Positions 13,471 through 51,885 are shown, counted from the stretch's first letter. The stretch: 64,000 nt of DNA from an uncultured Actinomycetes bacterium (GCA_963755025.1 CAVWIH010000011.1:1-64000), one strand, 5' to 3'. The notes: generated by a model not told the origin, from the letters alone. Numbers and translations: made by a program.

Positions 13471-14874
13471 CTACGGCCGCCGCCTTGGCGTGCCCGCCAG
13501 GCCCGCCCGCAGCCGCTCGACCGCGTTCAACCGCAGGCCCAGCAGGTCGGCGATGTGCCACTTGGCCTCGAGCGGGCTGGGGTCGGCGAAGTAGCTCGAC
13601 TCGGTCTCGAAGACGCGCCCCAGGCGCAGCTCGCCGCGCAGCTCGTGCATGACCGTGTTGTCGGACAGGTCGCGTACCGTGACGCCGAGCCTGTCGGCCA
13701 CGAACCGCTTGGCCTGAGCGATCCTCATGCCCTTCGCCATCTGCATCCGCGCCACCAGGTCTCCGGCGGCGCGCAGTCCGTTCATGCCGGAGGCGCACGA
13801 GTGGGCCACGTCCATGCCGAACGTGTCGCCCGAGCCGACCTATAACCCGTCGAGGCGCAGCACGTCGACACAGGCCCGCGAGGCCCGCGACACGGCGTCG
13901 ACGGGGGCGAAGGCGTGCATGGGCAGGCCGCCCACGCCCATGCCGACGTTCATGTGCACGGGAATGCGGGCGTCGGCCATGCAGGGCTTGACGTACGTCA
14001 GGGCGCGCGCCGAGTTCCAGGCGGCCGACTCGACGGTCGAGGTGTTCACCGCCGGACCGAACACCGTGGCGCCGGCCTGCTGCACGACGGCCAGCTGACC
14101 AGCGGGCTTGAGCCCGGCGAGGCGGGTGCCGCGGTACTCGAGGCGTCCGTGGGTGCCGAGCACCATCTCAGACGCCATGCCGACCATGATGCCCATGTCG
14201 GGGTGGCCGGCGCGCAGCGTCTCGACGGCCCGCAGAGTGGCCAGAAAGTCGGCGTCGCCGGCGGCGCCGGCGGTATCGAAGTTGATGCCGTCGGCGCCGG
14301 CCTCGTAGAGCGCCTCGGCCACGTAGACCATGTCGTCGACGGCCAGCTCGACCGCCTCTTCCTGCGCCTCGCGAGCCTCGTCGATCTTCATGTCGGGCAG
14401 CAACTCGGACCAGTTGCCGCAGGGCCCGTCGGGCGTCGAGTAGCGGCCCAGGTCGGGCTGCGCGCCGTAGTGCACGGGCACCGTCAGGCGCTCCTGCGCC
14501 TCTTTCATGGCCTGCTGCTCGAACGGCACGACCGTCTTCACGGCCTTGTACGAGTAGTCGATGTGAAAGAGCTCGACCGTGTCGTGGGCGAGCACCTGCT
14601 CGCAGGCATAGAGGGCGTCGATGCGGCTGCCGAGCTGCGGCGTGCCGCTGCCGTCTTTGGAGAGCACGACCTCGTCGCCTATGTCGACGCCGGTGAAGCG
14701 CGCCGACGAGGCGAAGATGTCGAGGAGATGGTCGAGCTCGTCGTCGGGGAGCGGCGGTACCTTGCCCCTGGTCGCCGCGGCCAGCGTGCCAGCCGCCAGG
14801 TCGGCCTTGATCTGGCTGCGCGTCGTTTCGAACAGCGAGCCGTCGCCCCTGCGGGCCAGCACATGCGGTTCCAC
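13471..14874 (-). CDS. mtbB: Dimethylamine:corrinoid methyltransferase MtbB family, pyrrolysine-encoding (in-frame TAG 13840-13842); paralog 1, 467 aa with readthrough
   Basis: HIDYSYK, FDTAGAAGDADF, VGMGVGG, DGL-TAG-VGSGD...AAGDLVARMQ; the ORFs 13840-14979 and 13471-13815 are in one frame. Confidence 0.92.
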
Positions 14875-14977
14875 CAGCGTCCCCCTCGGCCGTCCGGTAG
14901 CCGCGATGCTATCGCAGGGCCGCCGCGAGCGGCAAGGACGACGGGACCGACCGGCGGCCCCGGTCGTCCACCGCCGC

Positions 14978-15020
14978 AAGAAAGGAAGAAGCGGGGGCGC
15001 GGCCCTGCCGCGCCCCCGCT
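14978..15020 (-). terminator. Intrinsic terminator after mtbB paralog 2
   Basis: 14-bp stem agcgggggcgcggc/gccgcgcccccgct followed on the minus strand by TCTTCCTTTCTT. Confidence 0.75.
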
Positions 15021-15058
15021 CCTGGCCTGCTCGGCGCGCCGTTACCGACGCCGCAGAA

Positions 15059-16444
15059 CTACAGCCCGGCGCGGGCCTTGAAGCGCTCGACGCAGTTGAT
15101 GGGAATGTCGAGCGTGCGGGCGATGTTGAACTTGGCCTCGATCATGCCGGCGTCGCCGGGGCGCACCGCCGAGGTGTGAGGCAGCAGGCCCAACCCCTTC
15201 TCGCTGCGGATGGTCTCCATGGCGATCGGGTCGGACAGGTCGCGGACTCCGCAGCCGAGCTTGTCGGCGACGTAGGCCTTGGCCTCTTTCAAACGCATTC
15301 TCCGGGTCATTTGCATGCGTGCCACGAGATCTCCCGCGGTGCGCATTCCGCCCATGCCCGAAGCCTGCACGTGGGCAGACTCCATGCCTTGGGAATCGCC
15401 CGTGCCTACCTAGTACCCGTCGATCTTGAGGATCTCGACGAAGGCCTTGGAGGCTCGTGACGTGGCGTCGGCCGGCGGGTAGACGCAGGTCGGCACGCCG
15501 CCGACGCCCATGCCTACGTTGACGTGCACCGGGATCTCGGCGATCTCGGCCGCCGGCTTGATGAACGTCATGGCGCGGGCGATGTTCCAGGCCGTCGACT
15601 TGCCGGTGTTGATGTTGATCGCCGGGCCGTAGATAGAGGCGCCGGCGGCCTGCACCATGCGGATCTGGTCCTTGGGCCACATGCCGGCCAGGCGCTCGCC
15701 GTCGAAGGTGAGCTGGCCGTGCATACCGAGCACGAACTCGCTCGCCATGCCGATCTCGATGCCGAGCCAGGGGTACTTCTCGCGCAGCATGCGGCAGGCG
15801 GTGAGGCCGGCGAGAAAGTCGGCGTCGCCGGCCGCGCCGGTGGTGTCCATGTCGATGCCGTCGGCGCCGGCCTCGATCATGTGGTCGGCCACGTAGTTGA
15901 TGTCTTCGATCAGCATGTCGCAGGCTTCGAGCTGGGCTGCGCGGGCTTCGTCGACCTTCATGAGCGGCAGCAGCTCGGACCAGTTGGGAATGGGCCCGTC
16001 GGGCTTGGAGTAGCGCCCGAGGTCGGGCATCGCGCCGTACTGCACGGGGTTCGTGCAGAGCATCTGGGCGATCTTCATGGTCTGGCCTTCGTGGGCCACG
16101 TTGGTCTTGATGGCCTTGTACGAGTAGTCGATCTGCCAGAGCTCGACCATGTCGATGCCGACGACCTGCTCGTAGGTCTGCAGGTCCTGCACCCGGTTGC
16201 CGATGTGCTTGGTCCCGGTGCCGTCGTTGCTCATGATGACTTCTTCGCCGATGTCGACCGCGGTGAAGCGCGCCGACGAGGCGTAGATGTCGAGCAGATG
16301 GGCCTGCTCGTCGGCCGTGAGCGGCTCGGTCTTGGCCCGCTTGGCCGCCTGCTGTGTGCCGTCTTCGATGTCGGCCTTGATCTCGGAGCGGGTCATCTCG
16401 ACGAGCGAGCCGTCACCCATGCGGGTAGCGATCTTGGGTTCCAA
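15059..16444 (-). CDS. mtbB: MtbB-family methyltransferase, pyrrolysine-encoding (in-frame TAG 15410-15412); paralog 2
   Basis: TRMGDG, DYSYK, YGAMPDLG, DTTGAAGDADF, DGY-TAG-VGTGD...RTAGDLVARMQ, AKFNI; GGAGGTG 6 nt before TTG. Confidence 0.92.
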
Positions 16445-16640
16445 ACGCATCACCTCCACTGCTTCGCGCGAGTGCCCTGCCGCAACGAGCGCGGCGGGGC
16501 CGATGGGGCCGGGGGTCGGCGTGTGGTGCGTGAGAACGGCGACGACCCCGGACCGTGCGCTCATGGTATATCGGCCCTCGCGCCACCCGCCACCCGGGGC
16601 GGCCGGCGGGCCGGTCGCGCGGGTCGCGCGGCGGCGGCGG

Positions 16641-16703
16641 GGTGGCGCACGATGCGGCGCCGGTGGCGAACGATGCGGCGCGGGTGGCGGGCGATGCGGC
16701 GCC
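16641..16703. repeat. 21-bp tandem repeat x3 (ggtggcgnncgatgcggcgcs)
   Basis: Seen directly between ldh and mtbB2. Confidence 0.75.
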
Positions 16704-16730
16704 GATGCGCGGTGGCGCCGGCGGCGCGAC

Positions 16731-17759
16731 TTACGCGGCGCGGCGGCCGCCGATGTGCCCGCCCGGGCCCAGGAGCACTTCGTTGACGAGCGGGCGGCCG
16801 GCTTCGAACTCGCTCACGTTCAGCAGCGTCGTCGCCGCGATCTCGCGCAGGGCCTCGCTCGTGAAGTAGCCCTGGTGGGCGGTGACGATCACGTTGGGAA
16901 AGGTGAGCAGGCGGCTGAAGACGTCGTCCTGGATGATCTGGCCCGACAGGTCGTGCGAGAACAGCTCGGTCTCTTCTTCGTAAACGTCGAGGCCGAGCGA
17001 GCCTATGCGCCCCGCCTTGAGGCCGGCGACCACCGCCGCCGAGTCGACCAGGCCGCCGCGGCTCGTGTTGATCAGCATCACGCCGCGGCGCATCTGCGAG
17101 ATCGCCCGGCGGTCGATCAGGTGCGTCGTCTCGGGCAGCAGCGGACAGTGCAGCGTGATGATGTCCGACTCGGCGAACAGCTCCGCCAGCTCCACGTAGC
17201 GCGCGCCCAGCTCGAGCAGGCGCTCGTTGGGGAACGGGTCCGAGGCCAGCAGCCGGCAGCCGAACCCGGCGAGGATGGCGGCGGTGGTCGCCCCGATGAT
17301 GCCCGTGCCGATCACCCCGACGGTGCGGCCGTACAGGTCGAAGCCGAGCAGGCCGTCGAGCGAGAAGTTGCCGTCGCGCACGCGCTGCCAGGCGCGATGG
17401 ATCTTGCGGTTGAGGGTGAGGATCAGGGCGACGGCGTGCTCCGCGACGGCGTGCGGTGAATAGGCCGGCACGCGCACGACGTGCACGCCCAGCGCCCCCG
17501 CCGCCGCGAGGTCGACGTTGTTGAAGCCCGCCGAGCGCAGCGCCACGAGCGCCGTGCCGCCGGCGGCCAGGCTGGCCAGGGTGGTGCGGTCGAGCTCGTC
17601 GTTGGCGAACACCGAGACGGCCGCGAAGCCGGCGGCCAAGCCCGCCGTCTCGGCGGTGAGGCGCGGTTCGAAGAACACGAGCTCGTGACCGACCCCTTCG
17701 TTGGCGGCGGTCAGGAACTCGCGGTCGTAGCGGCGGGTCGAAAAGACGGCGATGCGCGT
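16731..17759 (-). CDS. ldhA: D-lactate dehydrogenase / D-2-hydroxyacid dehydrogenase
   Basis: [47 protein letters not shown]; the canonical Met position is ACG, so the start is uncertain. Confidence 0.88.
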
Positions 17760-17942
17760 GGCGGCCTCGCGTTGGTCAGGGTCGCGGACTGCCGTGACAG
17801 TTCCCGCTCTCGAGCAGGGCAAACGCCGCAGGACGCGCCGGTCGTACGTGTCGCGCCGCACAGGGACGGGCGCGGCGGCCGGGAACGGCGGCGGCCGCCC
17901 GGCCCGCGCCCGAAGGCGCGGGCCCGCGGCCGCCGCTTCGCC

Positions 17943-19355
17943 TCAGATCTCGACCGGCCGGCGGCGGCCCGCCTTGGCGCGAAAGCGCTCGACGCTGTTG
18001 ATGGGCAGGTCGAGCAGCGCAGCGATGTTGAACTTGGCCTCGATGCCGATGGGGTCGTGGATGTCGGTGACCTCGCCCGACTCGAGGATGCCGCCCAGGC
18101 CCAGCTCCTTGCGCACGTCGAACATGACGGTCGGGTCGGAGAGGTCGAGCGTCGAGACGCCCAGCTTGCCGGCCACGTACTCTTTGGCCTCTGTGAGGCG
18201 CATCGCTCGGGTGATCTGCATCCGGGCCACCAGATCTCCGGCAGTCCTGATCCCGCCCATCCCCGAAGCGACGCCGTGACTCACGGCCTGGCCGTAGACG
18301 TCGCCCGCGCCTACCTATAAGCCGTCGAGCCGCAGAATGTCGACCGCGGCGCGCGAGGCCCGGCAGGTGGCGTCGCCGGCCGGCACGACGTGCATGGGCA
18401 CGCCGCCCACGCCCATGCCGCCGTTCAGGTGCACCGGTACGGTGGCCGCCTCGCAGCAGGGTTTGGCGATGGTGAGCGTGCGCGCCACGTTCCAGGCGAT
18501 CGACTTGCCGGTGTTGACGTTGATCGCCGGCCCGAAGATGGTCACGCCGGCCTTGGCGGCGAGGCGTCATCTGCTCGAGCGGCCACAGGCCGGCCAGGCG
18601 CACGCCGTCGTACTCGAGCTCGCCGTGCATGCCGAGCACGAACTCGCCGGCCATGCCGATCTGGATGCCGAGGTCGGGGTGCCGGGCGCGTATGCGCTCG
18701 ACCGCCTTGAGGGCGGCCAGGAAGTCGGCGTCGCCGGCCGCGCCGGCGGTGTCTAAGTCGATGAACTCGATGCCGGCCTCGACCATCTCGTCGGCCACGT
18801 AGACGATATCGTCGGCGGCGAGCTCGACGGCCTCTTCCTGGGCCGCCCGCGCCTCGGCGATCCTGCCGAGCGGCAGGAGCTGCGACCAGTTGGCGACCGG
18901 GGCCGTCGGGCACCGTGTAGAGGCCGAGGTCGGGCATGGCGCCGTAGCCGAGCGGCGCGGTGGTCACGAACTGCGCCTGGCGCATGACGACCTGCTCGAA
19001 GGCCATGACGGCCTTGGCCGGCTTGTAGGAGTAGTCGTGGTGGTAGAGCTCGAGCGAGTCGGCGCAGAGGTACTGCTCGTAGTACTGCAGATCGTTGACG
19101 CGGGTGCCCAGGTCCTGGCTGCCGCAGCCGTCGTAGGAGAGCACGACCTCGTCGCCGATGTCGACGCCGGTGAAGCGGCTGTTCGAGCAGAAGATCTCGG
19201 CGAGGTGGTCGAGCTCGGCGCTCGGTGAGCTCCGGCGACTTTCGGACGCGCTTGGCGCCCGCCTGCGTGCCCTCCTCGAGATCGGCGCGGATCTGCGCCG
19301 GCGTCATCTCGACGAGCGCGCCGTCGCCCATGCGGGTACGGATCCTGGCTTCCAA
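17943..19355 (-). CDS. mtbB: MtbB-family methyltransferase, pyrrolysine-encoding (TAG 18315-18317); paralog 3, with about 3 frameshifts (~19230, ~18900, ~18565)
   Basis: Segments in successive frames reconstruct full MtbB: TRMGDG / DYSYK, YGAMPDLG / DTAGAAGDADF / DGL-TAG-VGAGD...RTAGDLVARMQ. Confidence 0.85.
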
Positions 19356-19474
19356 GCGCACACCTCCGCGGACAGGGGACTTGCGGCCGACCCTACCCCG
19401 CCGCGAGGCGCCTGTCATCAGCCGCCGCTGCCGGGCCGCGAAGATTGCCGAAGGATCCGCGCGGCGCCGGCCTC

Positions 19475-21256: not shown

Positions 21257-22798
21257 ATGGCCGAAGTCGCGCTCAGAAAAGAAAAGGCAAAACTCGTCAG
21301 GACACTCAAGCGCTGGGACCTCGTGTTCTTCAGCGTCTGCGCCATCATCGGGCTCGACGCGGTCGCCGGCCTCGCCAAGTGGGGGCTCGGGCAGGGCGTC
21401 ACGTGGTTCGTCATCTTCGTCTTTCTCTTCTTGCTGCCCTACGGCTTGGTGACCGCCGAGCTCGGCGCCGCCTTCCCCGCCGAGGGCGGCATCTACACCT
21501 GGGCGCGCATGGCCTACGGCAAGCTTCCCGGCGAGCTCACGGCGATCCTCTACTGGATCTCGAACGCGGTCTGGATCGGCGGCTCTCTGGCCGGCGTGAC
21601 GATCGCCTCGATCAACGGCTTCTTCCTCGAGCCCAACCATAAGGCCGACGTCGGCTGGGTCGGCTCGATCGTCATCGGTCTCATCTTCGTCTGGGTGTGC
21701 ATCGCGATCGCCGTCATGAGCCTCAAGCACGGCAAGTGGGCCGCCAACGTCGGCGCCTGGGTCAAGGCCATCGCGGTCATCGCCTTCGCCATCCTCGTGG
21801 TCGCCAACCTCGCCAAGCACGGCCTGCCCAGCGGCATCGCCGGCGCTCACACCTACGTGCCGTCGATCAGCGGCTTCCTGGCCGTGATCGGCTCCATCAT
21901 CTTCCTGTTCGTCGGCTTCGAGCTCGAGTCGGGCGCCAGTGAAGAGATGACCAACCCGCAGCGCGACGTGCCGATCGGCATCCTGCGCTCCGGCATCATC
22001 ACCAGCGCCCTGTACATCATCGTCCTGCTGGGCATCCTCTTCACGCTGCCGGTCAAGGAGCTGACCACCTCGAGCGGCCTCACCGGCGCCTTCTCGCTGG
22101 TCAACAAGACCGTCATCGGCACCGGCGGCGGGGCCAAGTTCATCGGCTACCTGTTCGGCATCGTCATCATCCTCACGCTGATCGGTTCGGGCTCGGTCTG
22201 GATCCTCGGCTCCTGCCGCGTGCAGGCCGTCGCCGCCCTCGACGGCGCCGCGCCGCGCTGGCTCGGCAAGTTCGGCAGCCAGGGCACGCCGACCTCGATG
22301 GCGTGGCTCTCCGGCATCGTCGGCTCGGCCTTCGTGATCGTGGTGTTCTACCTGTCGCACCTGAGCAACGCGAACACGCTCAACAACGCCATGGCCGTGT
22401 TCCTGGGCATCGCGCTCTCGACCGCCGTGCTCGCCTACATCTTCACCATCCCGGCCACCATCACGCTGCGCCGCAAGTTCCCCGACGTGCACCGCCCCTT
22501 CCTGGTGCCCGGCGGCACGTTCGGCCTGTGGCTCTGCGTCGTCTTGAGCGAGATCGGCATCGTGCTCACCGGCTTCACGCTGCTGTGGCCCGGTCTCATC
22601 GACAAGGTCCTCGGCCAGACCTACTCGATCAGCGACAACTGGGGCGTCTCGCGCTCGTTCTTCGAGCTCGTCACGTTCGGCTCGTTCATCGTCATCTGCC
22701 TGGTCGGCGTGATCTTCTACCTGATCGGCCGGGCCCAGTCCAAGGGCGCCGACGTGACCACCGCGGAGCTGCTCGAAGGCGTCGTCGAGGATTCGTGA
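21257..22798 (+). CDS. APC family amino acid/amine permease
   Basis: AELGAAFPAEGGIYTW, FVGFE, EEMTNPQRDVP, RPF; about 12 TM segments; GGAGG RBS. Confidence 0.92.
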   Translation: MAEVALRKEKAKLVRTLKRWDLVFFSVCAIIGLDAVAGLAKWGLGQGVTWFVIFVFLFLLPYGLVTAELGAAFPAEGGIYTWARMAYGKLPGELTAILYWISNAVWIGGSLAGVTIASINGFFLEPNHKADVGWVGSIVIGLIFVWVCIAIAVMSLKHGKWAANVGAWVKAIAVIAFAILVVANLAKHGLPSGIAGAHTYVPSISGFLAVIGSIIFLFVGFELESGASEEMTNPQRDVPIGILRSGIITSALYIIVLLGILFTLPVKELTTSSGLTGAFSLVNKTVIGTGGGAKFIGYLFGIVIILTLIGSGSVWILGSCRVQAVAALDGAAPRWLGKFGSQGTPTSMAWLSGIVGSAFVIVVFYLSHLSNANTLNNAMAVFLGIALSTAVLAYIFTIPATITLRRKFPDVHRPFLVPGGTFGLWLCVVLSEIGIVLTGFTLLWPGLIDKVLGQTYSISDNWGVSRSFFELVTFGSFIVICLVGVIFYLIGRAQSKGADVTTAELLEGVVEDS

Positions 22799-44122: not shown

Positions 44123-44320
44123 TCACTCGTCTACAGTCTCTTTGTCGCCCGTGGCGCAGGATTCTTGAGTACAGGGGGGCCCGCCAAAGGCGGCCACGGC
44201 GCGACAGGCGCGCGCCGCGAGCATGCTGCGGCAGCGCCGGCCGGCGGCGCCGGGCGCCAGGACGACGCTCAGGGCGCCGCCCAGGATGGTGCCGACGAAC
44301 AACGTACGCACGCGTGCCAT
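44123..44320 (-). CDS. Small YtxH-like membrane protein
   Basis: [16 protein letters not shown]. Confidence 0.45.
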
Positions 44321-44387
44321 GCAGCCACTATAGGACAGGGCGCGCGGCCCGGGCAACGCCCGGGCCGCGCGCCCCCACGGCCCGCTT

Positions 44388-46849
<2,462 letters not shown>

Positions 46850-46999
46850 ATCGTCATCCTTCGTCGTCGTCTCTCGCACAAATCGTTGGTCGTCGCGAGC
46901 GGCGGTCGCTTGCGGCGCCGGGGCGCCGGCTTTGTAGCGGCGGCGCGTGCCGACGCCGTTAGCGGCGTCGGGGGCGTCGCGCCTTAGCAGCGGCGACCC

Positions 47000-47437: not shown

Positions 47438-48571
47438 CTAGATGCCCCCGAAGCGCGCCGCGCGCGGGTCGGGCTCGGTCTTGCCGAGCTCCTCGGCAAG
47501 TCGCTTCTGTTCCTTGCTCAGCTTGGTCGGCACGATCAGCCGCACGCGCGCCAGCAGGTCGCCGTTGCCGCCGCCCTTGAGGCGCGGCGCGCCCTTGCCG
47601 CGCAAGCGCAGCGTACGCCCGTCGGAGCTGCCCGCCGGCACCTTGAGCGACACCTTGCCGCCGCCCGGCGTGGGCACGCGCGCGGTGGCGCCGAGCATCG
47701 CCTCGGCCATGGTCACCGGCACCTCGATCATGAGGTCGTCGCCGCGGCGCTCGAACAGGCCGGAGTCTTCGACGTGCACGACCACGTAGAGGTCGCCGGG
47801 CTGACCGCCGGCGGCGCCGCCCTCGCCCTTGCCCTTGAGGCGGATCTTGGTGCCCTCTTTGGCGCCCGCCGGGATCTTCACCGCGTAGCGCCGCGTCTGG
47901 CGGGTGACGCCGCCGCCGTGACAGGTGGGGCACGGCGAGTCGATCACGGTGCCGTTGCCGTGGCAGCGCGGGCAGGGCACCGAGATGGCAAAGGGGCCCT
48001 GGTTCTGCGCCATGACGCCGCGGCCGTGGCACTCGGGACAGATCTTGGGCGAGGTGCCCGGCGCCGCGCCGGTACCGTGACAGGTAGGGCAGGGGCCGTT
48101 GCTCTCGACCGGCACGCGCACCGAGGCGCCGTTCAGCGAGTCGTCGAACGAGATGGTGACGTCGGCCTGCAGGTCGGCGCCGCGCTGGGCCGTGGCGCGG
48201 CCGCCGCGGCGGTTACCCTGCCCCGCGCCGCCGAAGAGGCTCGAGAGGATGTCGCCGAAGTCGCCCATCTGGAACGCCTGGCCGCCGCCCTGCTGGAACA
48301 TGCTCGGGTCGAAGCCCTGAAAGCCGCCCTGGCCGGGGCGTCCGGTGCGCGGGTCGAAGGCGCCCAGGCGCAGCATCTCGTCGTAGTGCTTGCGCTTGTC
48401 GGGGTCGGAGAGCGTCTCGTAGGCCTCGCTGACCTCTTTGAACTTGTCTTCGGCGCCCTTGTCGGAGTTGGTGTCGGGGTGGTACTTGCGCGCCAGCTTG
48501 CGAAAGGCCTTGCGGACCTCGTCGGGCGAGGCCTCGCGCGGGACTCCGAGCGTCTTGTAGAAATCGGCCAT
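47438..48571 (-). CDS. dnaJ: Chaperone DnaJ
   Basis: HPD motif; four CxxCxGxG. Confidence 0.97.
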   Translation of the reverse strand: MADFYKTLGVPREASPDEVRKAFRKLARKYHPDTNSDKGAEDKFKEVSEAYETLSDPDKRKHYDEMLRLGAFDPRTGRPGQGGFQGFDPSMFQQGGGQAFQMGDFGDILSSLFGGAGQGNRRGGRATAQRGADLQADVTISFDDSLNGASVRVPVESNGPCPTCHGTGAAPGTSPKICPECHGRGVMAQNQGPFAISVPCPRCHGNGTVIDSPCPTCHGGGVTRQTRRYAVKIPAGAKEGTKIRLKGKGEGGAAGGQPGDLYVVVHVEDSGLFERRGDDLMIEVPVTMAEAMLGATARVPTPGGGKVSLKVPAGSSDGRTLRLRGKGAPRLKGGGNGDLLARVRLIVPTKLSKEQKRLAEELGKTEPDPRAARFGGI

Positions 48572-48574
48572 GGG

Positions 48575-49225
48575 CTACCTCGCCACGATGACCCGTGCGG
48601 GCCGCAGCAGCCTGCCGTGCAGCAGGTAGCCGGGCTCGAGCACGGCGACGATCGCGCCCTCGTCGAACTCGTCGGATTCTTGCGCGACGACCGCCTCGTG
48701 GACGTTGGGGTCGAACGGCAGCCCCGGTTCGGCGGGCACCTCGTCGAGGCCGTGGCTCTCGAGCACCGAGCGCAGCTGCCCGGAGACGATCTCCACACCC
48801 TTGATCAGTTGCCCCTCTTCGTGGCGCTCGGCCGACTCGAGGGCGCGCTGCATGTTGTCGAGCACCGGCAGCAGCGATTCGAGCACGCCCTCGCCGGCGC
48901 GCAAGACGAGCGCCTGGTTGTCGCGCTGCATGCGCTTGCGGTAGTTCTCGAACTCGGCCTTGAGACGCTGCAGGTGGTCGAGGTACTGGTCGCGCTCGGC
49001 CAAGGCCGCGCGCAGCTCGTCGCCCGCCGCCGGGTGCAGCTCGATGACCGGCTGCGCGCCGCCCTCGGGCTCGATGGGGACCGTGCGATCGCGAGACGAC
49101 GCCGCCGCCTTGACGTCGGCCGCGTCGGACGGCTGGTCGGCCGCGCCCTGGGGAGCGGCGTCGGCCTCGTGGTCGCCGCGCTTGCCCTGGCTGCGCCGGT
49201 CCTTCTTGTCGTGGGGTGTCGTCAT
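48575..49225 (-). CDS. grpE: Nucleotide exchange factor GrpE
   Basis: [19 protein letters not shown]...LLRPARV. Confidence 0.96.
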
Positions 49226-49408
49226 CGTCTGGTCGCCCTCTGTCGTGATCGCCTGATCGTTTTGGTCGTTTCGGTCGTACGTGTCGGCTGTGCGGTCGTG
49301 CCTTCGTTCGCGCGGCCCGGCGGCGCGGCCGGGCGGCGGTGACGCCGCCCGGCCGGCGGTCGGCTGCGGCCCGGCGCCCGCCGGGCCGTCGTGCCTGCCG
49401 CCCGCGCG

Positions 49409-49865
49409 TCAGGCCTTGGCCGCCATCGCCTCGACGGTGGCCGCCGGCTTGACCTCGATGCGCCGCGGACGCTCCGGCTTCGGACTTGGGCACGGTGACC
49501 TGCAGGACACCGTCTTCGTAGGTGGCCCTGATCTCGTCGGCCTTCACGCCCTGCGGCAGGGCGAGGCTGCGCTGGAACGAGCCGTAGCGACGCTCGACGC
49601 GGTAGTAGCGCTGCTCGTCGACCTTGTCTTCGAAGGTGCGCTCGCCCTTGACGGTGAGCACGTTGTCGTCGACCTCGATCTGGATGTCGTCGACCTTCAT
49701 GCCGGGCAGCTCGGCCTTGAGCACGACGGCCTCTTTGGTGTCGAACACGTCGACCGCCGGTACCCAGCTCTCGGGACGCCCCGACCACAGCGAGTCGGCG
49801 AGCCGGTTCACCTGGCCCTGCAGGTTCGTCATTTCGCGGAAGGGGTCCCATCTGATGATCGCCAT
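49409..49865 (-). CDS. Hsp20/alpha-crystallin small heat-shock protein (frameshift near 49470)
   Basis: [31 protein letters not shown]. Confidence 0.92.
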
Positions 49866-49976
49866 GTGTCCGTTCTCCTTTCCGGTCGCTGCCCGCCGGG
49901 CCCGGATGGGCCCGGCGGCCTCGACCTTCGGCCTGCTCGCGTGGGTATGACGCGGCGCCTTTACGTTGCTGTCTGC

Positions 49977-51885
<1,909 letters not shown>

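What the first reader, a model, noticed from the sequence alone, without database searches (positions are those of the whole stretch)
13471..19355. Cluster of three pyrrolysine-encoding MtbB dimethylamine-methyltransferase paralogs in a high-GC actinobacterium
Seen: three genes each broken by an in-frame TAG (13840, 15410, 18315). The reading frame continues into the conserved C-terminal domain (ASGM.G.R.AGDLVARMQ...AK.NI). Known: methanogen MtbB has Pyl in the motif DGI-O-IGVGD, and these read DG[L/Y]-O-VGxGD. Three independent stops at the homologous codon cannot plausibly be sequencing noise. Inference: this presumed Thermoleophilia-type organism uses the 22nd amino acid for methylamine demethylation, possibly feeding a Wood-Ljungdahl or folate pathway. 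Pyl is mostly known from methanogens, Firmicutes and Deltaproteobacteria. Standard annotation would split all three genes.
Basis: partly seen in the sequence, partly recalled or inferred. Interest (0 to 1): 0.93.

Follow-up and report, generated by a model that had tools for sequence, protein, structure and literature searches.

The report
Pyrrolysine-coding dimethylamine methyltransferase genes, Thermoleophilia
Three neighbouring genes for a dimethylamine-demethylating enzyme each carry an in-frame TAG where the rare 22nd amino acid pyrrolysine is inserted, and the same genome holds the machinery to read it; the catch is correct, but this trait has already been reported for this group of soil and peat actinobacteria.

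Summary
Three mtbB paralogs lie on the minus strand (13471-14874, 15059-16450, 17943-19361). Each has one in-frame TAG (13840, 15410, 18315) at the same family column: Pfam PF09505 position 354 and position 1-3 of Rfam PYLIS_2. The same genome carries pylB, pylC, pylD, a tRNA-Pyl(CUA), pylSn and pylSc on another contig. It also holds corrinoid proteins, two RamA-type activases, four more Pyl-mtbB genes and five TAG-containing mttB genes. TAG was conserved in 57 of 57 homologous alignments from 30 related MAG loci.

First, gene 3 is also broken by three 1-nt insertions in this assembly. These are probably assembly errors, because pylC and a Clp ATPase are also frameshifted and near-identical contigs from two other metagenomes lack two of the three. 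Second, no acetyl-CoA synthase was found, so a folate oxidation route fits better than Wood-Ljungdahl.

The trait is lineage-wide: PylSc occurs in 73 of 79 genomes of the same family. It is also already published (Ellenbogen 2023; Guo 2022), and this scan has found it repeatedly in other Thermoleophilia genomes. Verdict: a new member of a known kind, of low to moderate interest.

The parts
13471..14874 (-). mtbB paralog 1 (467 aa with Pyl). Likely GTG start at 14874, preceded by GAGGGGGA. Pyl codon TAG at 13840-13842. The terminal stop is also TAG (13471-13473).
15059..16450 (-). mtbB paralog 2 (463 aa with Pyl). ATG start at 16450, after GGAGG. Pyl codon TAG at 15410-15412. The terminal stop is also TAG (15059-15061).
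   Evidence: Contigs from an RNA library, 99-100% identical, lie on both sides of the TAG.
17943..19361 (-). mtbB paralog 3. GTG start at 19361, Pyl codon TAG at 18315-18317, TGA stop at 17943-17945. In this assembly it is broken by three 1-nt insertions near 19222, 18902 and 18564-18567, and it also has one in-frame 3-nt insertion at 19242-19244.
   Evidence: Contigs in runs X1 and X2 lack one base at 18567, and X2 lacks one base at 18902.
13743..13842 (-). Rfam RF02509 PYLIS_2 match (mtbB Pyl insertion region). Model positions 1-3 (UAG) lie on the TAG of gene 1.
   Evidence: 61.1 bits against a gathering score of 36. Helix 1 is largely non-canonical, so the score comes mainly from sequence.
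15313..15412 (-). RF02509 PYLIS_2 match starting at the TAG of gene 2.
   Evidence: 57.8 bits.
18218..18317 (-). RF02509 PYLIS_2 match starting at the TAG of gene 3.
   Evidence: 57.5 bits.
14987..15023 (-). Terminator-like hairpin (17 pairs, then TCCTTTCTTG), 36 nt after the terminal TAG of gene 2.
   Evidence: This is a consensus match only; function is not shown.
16731..17861 (-). D-isomer-specific 2-hydroxyacid dehydrogenase gene between paralogs 3 and 2. A gap of the same size separates the two orthologs in related loci.
   Evidence: PF02826, PF00389; spacing in L006, L016 and L008.
21257..22798 (+). APC-family amino acid/amine permease. It is a candidate substrate importer, by inference only.
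   Evidence: Similar permeases flank other mtbB/mttB clusters.

Best explanation
These are three old paralogs of the dimethylamine:corrinoid methyltransferase MtbB, in an uncultured Thermoleophilia bacterium from peat or soil. In each gene one UAG is translated as pyrrolysine by the organism's own tRNA-Pyl(CUA), split PylSn/PylSc synthetase and PylBCD biosynthesis genes, which lie on another contig. By analogy with the characterised archaeal enzyme, the Pyl residue activates dimethylamine so that a methyl group passes to the Co(I) of an MtbC-type corrinoid protein, which a RamA-type activase keeps reduced. The methyl group is then most likely passed to tetrahydrofolate and oxidised through MTHFR and FTHFS rather than fixed through acetyl-CoA synthase.

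What is shown: family membership, the TAG column, the pyl genes, the accessory genes and conservation across the lineage. What is inferred: Pyl insertion itself, the substrate, the second methyltransferase and the fate of the methyl group.

The three frameshifts in paralog 3 are more likely assembly errors (about 0.6) than true decay.
For: MtbB membership: full-length matches to PF09505 and TIGR02368 across the TAG.

TAG position: profile column 354 in both intact genes. All three TAGs align to UAG at positions 1-3 of Rfam PYLIS_2, scoring 57.5-61.1 bits against a gathering score of 36.

Conservation: 57 of 57 alignments in 30 related loci have TAG at that codon. All 150 listed MtbB matches in 39 of 41 genomes of the same family contain exactly one TAG.

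Pyl machinery in the same genome:
- PylSc, 277.8 bits against a cut-off of 178. Its best PDB match is a pyrrolysyl-tRNA synthetase, 3dsq/2zni, E 7e-86.
- tRNA-Pyl CUA called by ARAGORN. Its cloverleaf has a 5-nt D-loop, a long anticodon stem and a short variable loop.
- PylB 421.7 bits, PylD 173 bits and PylSn 125.8 bits, all above their cut-offs, plus PylC in two pieces.

Accessory genes: 10 MtbC-like corrinoid proteins and one weak B12-domain match (11 matches), 2 RACo/RamA, FTHFS, MTHFR.

Transcription hint: contigs from an RNA library, 99-100% identical, cover gene 2 on both sides of the TAG (records 9-15).

Gene 3 frameshifts as errors:
- 7 of 7 orthologs are intact.
- X1 and X2 contigs lack the extra base at 18567, and X2 lacks it at 18902.
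- pylC is in one frame in at least 8 of 11 genomes of the same genus but is split in this one.
- A Clp ATPase in the same window is split between two frames.
Against: No protein-level evidence for Pyl was obtained here.

pylC is frameshifted in this assembly. If that is real, this strain could not make Pyl.

TAG is a common terminator here: 459 of 1376 crude ORFs, or 33%. Genes 1 and 2 themselves end in TAG, and there is no excess of back-up stops after TAG terminators (median 69 codons against 55.5 after TGA; Mann-Whitney p 0.08). How the cell tells Pyl-UAG from stop-UAG is therefore unexplained.

The PYLIS_2 helix 1 is not maintained.

The pyl cassette lies on a different contig of a MAG with 5% estimated contamination.

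No methylcorrinoid:THF methyltransferase was identified with confidence.

The RNA-library contigs could derive from contaminating DNA, as the tool warns.

The contigs that lack the insertions differ from the window at 14-25 other letters per ~900 bases, so they come from other strains. The third insertion site was not covered.
Confidence: 0.9

Rival explanations
1. Paralog 3 is a genuine, recently inactivated pseudogene in this strain, with three real +1 insertions; paralogs 1 and 2 remain functional.
For: There are three insertions within 660 nt of one gene, while the two neighbouring paralogs are intact. The genome has six other mtbB copies, so the gene is redundant. The contigs that lack the insertions come from slightly different strains.
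Against: Apart from the three bases, the sequence keeps 88-91% nucleotide identity to intact orthologs and has no other lesion. Frameshifts also hit single-copy pylC and a Clp ATPase in the same assembly, which argues for technical indels. A crude frame-switch scan gives 186 candidates genome-wide.
Confidence: 0.35
2. The TAGs are true stops. The genes are split or truncated and produce a ~344-aa N-terminal protein, with or without a separately translated C-terminal piece. Pyl is not inserted.
For: TAG is a frequent terminator in this genome (33%). Public gene callers annotate the ~344-aa product.
Against: The downstream 116-122 codons stay in frame, keep coding-type composition and match profile positions 355-462. 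TAG is fixed at this codon in 57 of 57 relatives. The complete Pyl machinery co-occurs: PylSc in 73 of 79 and MtbB in 38 of 40 genomes of the family, and the two small genomes that lack MtbB (G002, G014) also lack PylSc.
Confidence: 0.03
3. The Pyl system of this particular strain is defunct because the pylC frameshift is real, so all its TAG-containing methyltransferase genes are relics.
For: pylC is split at profile position 84 into two frames, and its best piece scores just under the cut-off (244.3-246.2 against 248.3 bits).
Against: Twelve TAG-containing mtbB and mttB genes keep open downstream frames. pylC is intact in most genomes of the same genus. The assembly shows other frameshifts in conserved genes.
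Confidence: 0.05
4. Binning artefact: the contig with the pyl cassette (C10) belongs to a different organism from the window contig (C11).
For: The MAG is 84% complete with 5% contamination. The two features lie on different contigs.
Against: The GC content is alike (0.706 and 0.693). PylSc and Pyl-mtbB co-occur in nearly all genomes of the same family, several of which have few contigs. C10 itself carries an MtbC-like corrinoid gene and MttB fragments.
Confidence: 0.03

Closest known systems
MtbB1-3, dimethylamine:corrinoid methyltransferases of Methanosarcina (Pfam PF09505, NCBIfam TIGR02368)
   Same: The match covers the full family length above the curated cut-offs. There is a single in-frame UAG at the family's conserved column, and several paralogs per genome. 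Cognate corrinoid protein and RamA-type activase genes are present. The review PMC2933860 (passages read) states that the amber position is conserved within each methyltransferase class and that Pyl was confirmed by mass spectrometry in MtbB.
   Different: The host is a bacterium with about 70% GC, and it encodes a haem-copper oxidase. There are no methanogenesis genes, and MtrH was not found. The seven copies are only 47-69% identical to each other. TAG is a common stop in this genome. I could not align directly to a Methanosarcina sequence with the tools; the residue number 356 for the archaeal Pyl is recalled, not tested.
Pyl-encoding mtbB and mttB of Stordalen Mire Actinobacteriota MAGs (Ellenbogen et al. 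2023, mSystems, PMC10805028)
   Same: It is the same lineage. Related loci come from MAGs titled palsa_645, palsa_647, bog_752 and fen_672, at 60-88% protein identity. The paper (passages read) reports that Actinobacteriota MAGs express Pyl-encoding mttB and mtbB, and names genus Bog-752 among the most active.
   Different: In the passages I read, the paper infers Pyl from gene truncation and does not describe the pyl cassette, tRNA-Pyl, copy numbers or distribution. I did not read its supplements.
Bacterial split PylSn/PylSc systems (the best PDB match is a pyrrolysyl-tRNA synthetase, 3dsq/2zni; I recall these as Desulfitobacterium hafniense PylSc)
   Same: pylSn and pylSc are separate genes, as in all bacteria surveyed by Guo et al. 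2022 (PMC9630628, passage read). PylSc aligns over residues 5-281 at E 7e-86.
   Different: The gene order is pylB-pylC-pylD-pylT-pylSn. pylSc lies 3.9 kb away on the opposite strand, with a radical-SAM gene, a corrinoid protein gene, a MarR gene and a YceI gene in between. Guo et al. counted only two Actinobacteria.
Rfam RF02509 PYLIS_2 (mtbB pyrrolysine insertion region)
   Same: All three genes match the full 100-nt model above the gathering score, starting at the UAG.
   Different: Most pairs of helix 1 are non-canonical in the three window sequences. The match therefore reflects conserved coding sequence, and no functional insertion element is shown. The review PMC2933860 also says no PYLIS-like element was seen in mtbB.

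Membership tests
MtbB (PF09505 Dimeth_Pyl / TIGR02368 equivalog) | Full-length match above the curated cut-off. | tested here: met
   Gene 1: 537.6 bits on PF09505 and 430.8 bits on TIGR02368. Gene 2: 548 and 416 bits. The cut-offs are 25 and 369.1 bits. The gene 3 pieces cover profile positions 41-462 in three frames.
MtbB (PF09505 Dimeth_Pyl / TIGR02368 equivalog) | A single in-frame UAG at the family's conserved Pyl column. | tested here: met
   The N-terminal fragments end at profile position 352/353 and the C-terminal fragments start at 355 in both genes. The TAG aligns to UAG at positions 1-3 of RF02509 in all three genes. TAG is present in 57 of 57 related alignments. No direct alignment to a biochemically characterised archaeal MtbB was possible.
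MtbB (PF09505 Dimeth_Pyl / TIGR02368 equivalog) | Cognate corrinoid protein and reductive activase encoded in the genome. | tested here: met
   There are 11 matches to TIGR02370, of which 3 are above the cut-off, 7 score 152-213 bits and 1 is weak at 33 bits. There are 2 RACo_C_ter matches of 324-344 bits. None lies inside the window.
MtbB (PF09505 Dimeth_Pyl / TIGR02368 equivalog) | Methyl transfer from dimethylamine to Co(I)-corrinoid, and a Pyl residue present in the protein. | not testable with these tools
   This needs an enzyme assay and mass spectrometry.
Pyrrolysine decoding system (pylT, pylS, pylBCD) | tRNA-Pyl with a CUA anticodon and the atypical tRNA-Pyl architecture. | tested here: met
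   ARAGORN calls tRNA-Pyl (cta) at C10:71096-71168. The fold shows a 7-bp acceptor stem, a 4-bp D-stem with a 5-nt loop, a 7-bp predicted anticodon stem, a 2-nt variable region and a 5-bp T-stem. That these are tRNA-Pyl hallmarks is recalled knowledge.
Pyrrolysine decoding system (pylT, pylS, pylBCD) | PylRS catalytic subunit and the N-terminal tRNA-binding subunit. | tested here: met
   PylSc: 277.8 bits against 178.15, with a PDB PylRS match at E 7e-86. PylSn: 125.8 bits against 51.15.
Pyrrolysine decoding system (pylT, pylS, pylBCD) | Intact PylB, PylC and PylD biosynthesis genes. | tested here: inconclusive
   PylB (421.7 against 348.2) and PylD (173 against 150.05) are above their cut-offs. 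PylC is split at profile position 84 into two frames: 65 bits plus 244-246 bits, against a cut-off of 248.3.
PYLIS_2 (Rfam RF02509) | Score above the gathering threshold, with the model anchored on the UAG. | tested here: met
   57.5-61.1 bits against 36, model positions 1-100.
PYLIS_2 (Rfam RF02509) | Consensus stem-loop maintained by base pairing. | tested here: not met
   cmscan marks 6 to 10 positions of helix 1 as non-canonical in each of the three matches. Only the short 3' helix is kept.

The most novel reading that the evidence does not exclude
One Thermoleophilia family has made pyrrolysine a core trait: PylSc in 73 of 79 species-level genomes and 1-11 Pyl-mtbB copies per genome. Yet TAG remains a third of its stop codons and even terminates about a third of its own mtbB genes. 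The genome also encodes an aerobic-type oxidase. Two bolder readings remain open. (a) The divergent paralogs, 47-69% identical with seven in this genome, may demethylate secondary amines other than dimethylamine; one copy is flanked by choline/ethanolamine-kinase-like genes. (b) The lineage may have a way, not yet described in bacteria, of telling Pyl-UAG from stop-UAG within a single mRNA.
Probability: 0.2. Interest if true: 0.6.

Novelty: new member of a known kind. Interest (0 to 1): 0.27.

Why it matters
Pyl-dependent methylamine demethylation in abundant peat and soil actinobacteria competes with methylotrophic methanogens for di- and trimethylamine. It therefore bears on methane budgets, which is the theme of Ellenbogen et al. 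2023.

In practical terms, standard pipelines truncate these genes: nearly all of the 120 best public homologs are about 344 aa long. As a result, the methylotrophic capacity of this lineage is under-annotated.

This genome adds same-genome evidence for the whole pyl cassette. It also shows that the trait is family-wide within Thermoleophilia, while it was not found in about 370 sampled genomes of other Actinomycetota classes.

The coexistence of heavy TAG stop usage with Pyl decoding makes the lineage a natural test case for ambiguous UAG decoding in bacteria.

Tried and rejected
- PDB sequence search with MtbB gave no match, so no structural comparison was made.
- Paul et al. 2000 (PMC111316), which should give the archaeal amber position, is not held. 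I used the Pfam column and the Rfam alignment instead.
- The test for back-up stops after TAG terminators showed no enrichment.
- The terminal stops of mtbB genes in related loci show no avoidance of TAG. The script counted TGA 27, TAG 19 and TAA 5 of 51. One row (L013) was mis-scored because of an upstream TGA, so the corrected count is TGA 28, TAG 18, TAA 5.
- The promoter scan gave 0 sites.
- The PylSc homolog search returned 3625 hits, but none carried an organism name, so no inference on origin was possible.
- A crude frame-switch scan gave 7.0 candidates per 100 kb of coding sequence in this genome and 4.6 in the related loci. It missed the pylC break, so it is too blunt to settle assembly quality.
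- MtmB, MtrH and CdhC/ACS were not found. The genome is 84% complete, so this is not proof of absence.
- The TGA reported inside an MttB match on C24 lies upstream of the ORF start. It is not a selenocysteine site.
- In read laying, the RNA-library run X10 gave no cover on gene 1 or on the dehydrogenase gene, and only one 161-nt contig on gene 3. These are contigs, so nothing about silence or relative expression can be concluded. No listed contig bridges the TAG of gene 2. The insertion near 19222 was not covered by the informative contigs.
- A genome-wide screen for further TAG-readthrough genes gave 56 candidates, mostly same-frame neighbouring genes, and was not pursued.
Full report
**Observation.** Under table 11 the minus strand between 13471 and 19361 holds three pairs of ORFs, each pair separated only by a TAG (13840-13842, 15410-15412, 18315-18317). 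Read through, gene 1 (13471-14874) and gene 2 (15059-16450) match Pfam PF09505 Dimeth_Pyl over profile positions 5-461 and 4-462 of 463 (E 2.8e-161 and 2e-164). They also match the NCBIfam equivalog TIGR02368 above its cut-off (430.8 and 416 bits against 369.1). I then split each gene at the TAG. The upstream parts end at profile position 352/353 and the downstream parts begin at 355, so in both genes the TAG occupies profile column 354. Rfam RF02509 (PYLIS_2, the mtbB Pyl insertion region) matches all three genes over its whole 100-nt model at 57.5-61.1 bits (gathering score 36), and its first three positions, UAG, lie on the three TAGs. I could not align directly to a biochemically characterised Methanosarcina MtbB: no MtbB structure is in the PDB copy and the original paper is not held.

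Gene 3 (17943-19361) is not simply interrupted by the TAG. Its coding sequence passes through three frames. Aligned with seven orthologs from related MAGs, it has three single-base insertions near 19222, 18902 and 18564-18567, and one in-frame 3-nt insertion. Otherwise it is 88-91% identical to six of these orthologs at the nucleotide level and 80% to the seventh, L012. Contigs from two other metagenomes, with 14-25 other differences in about 900 bases, lack one base at 18567 (X1 and X2) and at 18902 (X2); the third site was not covered. The same assembly also breaks other conserved genes:
- pylC at profile position 84, although pylC lies in one frame in at least 8 of 11 genomes of the same genus.
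- A Clp ATPase in this window, with D1 in ORF 44269-46767 and D2 in ORF 44388-45617.
- MTHFR and several MttB paralogs.

I therefore rate assembly error at about 0.6 and true pseudogenisation at about 0.35. A crude frame-switch scan was not discriminating.

**Pyl machinery.** The genome (3.37 Mb, 39 contigs, about 70% GC, 84% complete, 5% contamination) carries the machinery on contig C10:
- pylB (421.7 bits), pylC (split) and pylD (173 bits).
- A tRNA-Pyl with anticodon CUA at 71096-71168.
- pylSn (125.8 bits), and an MtbC-like corrinoid gene.
- pylSc on the opposite strand (277.8 bits against a cut-off of 178).

The tRNA folds into a compact cloverleaf with a 5-nt D-loop, a long anticodon stem and a very short variable region. 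The best PDB matches of PylSc are pyrrolysyl-tRNA synthetases (3dsq and 2zni, E 7e-86, residues 5-281).

**Genome context.** Besides the three window genes, the genome has four more mtbB genes, each with one TAG. It has 34 MTTB-family matches (about 27 genes), five of them with an in-frame TAG, and no MtmB. It also has ten MtbC/MttC-like corrinoid proteins and two RamA-type activases. The intact mtbB copies are only 47-69% identical to each other. FTHFS and MTHFR are present and a haem-copper oxidase subunit I is present. CdhC/ACS and MtrH were not found. The methylcorrinoid:THF methyltransferase was not identified.

**Relatives.** The 30 loci retrieved with gene 2 all come from MAGs titled Thermoleophilia, Actinomycetota or Actinomycetes, including peat MAGs palsa_645, palsa_647, bog_752 and fen_672.
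- All 57 tblastn alignments that cover the Pyl column have TAG there.
- The trio, in the order paralog 3, a gap of dehydrogenase size, paralog 2, paralog 1, recurs in L006, L014, L016, L017 and L008.
- In an even sample of the class, PylSc was found in 83 of 401 genomes: 73 of 79 in the window's own family, 9 of 61 in a second family, and 0 in ten other families.
- In a phylum-wide sample only 2 of 401 genomes had PylSc, both in this class.
- In the family, 39 of 41 genomes (40 relatives at least 90% complete, plus G000) have MtbB, with 1-11 matches each. Every one of the 150 listed matches contains exactly one TAG. The two small genomes without MtbB also lack PylSc.

**Ambiguity of UAG.** TAG ends 459 of 1376 crudely called ORFs (33%; TGA 791, TAA 126). 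Genes 1 and 2 themselves end in TAG, as do 18 of 51 mtbB genes in the related loci after one correction. TAG terminators are not followed by closer back-up stops than TGA terminators (median 69 against 55.5 codons, p 0.08). Helix 1 of the PYLIS_2 model is not maintained. So nothing I found explains how Pyl-UAG and stop-UAG are distinguished. Conditional expression of the pyl genes, as I recall for Acetohalobium, or tolerated competition, as described for Methanosarcina (listings, abstracts only), are the ordinary candidates.

**Expression hint.** In one metatranscriptomic library (X10), contigs 99-100% identical to the window lie on gene 2 at 15120-15341, 15431-15617 and on to 16433, that is, on both sides of the TAG. 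One 161-nt contig lies on gene 3. These are contigs from an RNA library, so this is a hint and not proof of transcription.

**Literature.**
- Ellenbogen et al. [quoted passage not shown]
- Guo et al. 2022 (PMC9630628; passage read) found PylRS in 81 bacterial genomes, including two Actinobacteria.
- Full-text searches for pyrrolysine with Thermoleophilia, Actinobacteriota or Actinomycetota, and for Bog-752, turned up no paper describing the pyl cassette, the copy numbers or the family-wide distribution in Thermoleophilia.
- Notes from this scan show the same finding made repeatedly on other Thermoleophilia genomes.

**Verdict.** The catch and the core interpretation are correct. This is a further member of a known and already reported kind. 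The modest added value is same-genome evidence for the complete pyl cassette, the lineage-wide distribution, the unresolved UAG ambiguity, and the warning that paralog 3 and pylC are frame-broken in this assembly.

Noticed in passing
window 44269-46879 (minus strand): A Clp-type ATPase gene is split between frames. Clp_N, AAA and AAA_lid_9 lie in ORF 44269-46767, and AAA_2 and ClpB_D2-small lie in ORF 44388-45617. The first ~30 residues appear to lie in a third ORF (45512-46879). This suggests indel errors in the assembly.
   Followed up: partly
window 49222-51885 and 48213-49865 (minus strand): The DnaK ORF runs to 887 aa although the HSP70 domain ends at residue 597, and it overlaps an Hsp20 ORF that also runs on far beyond its domain. 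The cause may be lost stops or indels, or only the open frames typical of high-GC DNA.
   Followed up: no
G000 C10:68840-69968 (L004 6820-8029): pylC is split at profile position 84 into two frames in this assembly, while most genomes of the same genus have it in one frame.
   Followed up: yes
G000 C10:67100-76376 (L004): The pyl gene order is unusual: pylB-pylC-pylD-pylT-pylSn, then a radical-SAM gene, an MtbC-like corrinoid gene, a MarR regulator and a YceI gene, then pylSc on the opposite strand. pylSn itself ends in TAG.
   Followed up: partly
G000, many contigs (e.g. C14:383544-397373, C16:20054-26617, C34:130916-136073): There are 34 MTTB-family matches (about 27 genes), five of them with an in-frame TAG. 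They are clustered with mtbB, corrinoid protein, TetR and APC permease genes. That is a very large methylated-amine methyltransferase repertoire for a 3.4-Mb genome.
   Followed up: partly
G000 C36:9196-15753 (L045 196-6753): On the locus that holds the best-scoring mtbB copy (C36:15959-17326) lie two choline/ethanolamine-kinase-like genes and a DeoR regulator. The nearer kinase gene ends about 200 nt from mtbB and the other lies about 6 kb away. This hints that this paralog may act on an ethanolamine-type secondary amine.
   Followed up: no
G000 C24:14507-14604: ARAGORN calls a tRNA-Sec (TCA), so this genome may decode both selenocysteine and pyrrolysine.
   Followed up: no
window 16731-17861 (minus strand): A D-2-hydroxyacid dehydrogenase gene sits between mtbB paralogs 3 and 2. 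A gap of the same size separates the orthologs in several related MAGs. Any link to methylamine metabolism is unexplained.
   Followed up: partly
protein P0077 (public, 468 aa): A full-length MtbB homolog, 51% identical to gene 2, has Q at the Pyl column. This is either a gene call under a TAG=Q code or a genuine non-Pyl variant.
   Followed up: no
G000 C14:130124-131461: A haem-copper oxidase subunit I (525 bits) is present in a genome that relies on corrinoid and RamA-type, oxygen-sensitive chemistry. As far as I recall, the known Pyl bacteria are anaerobes.
   Followed up: no
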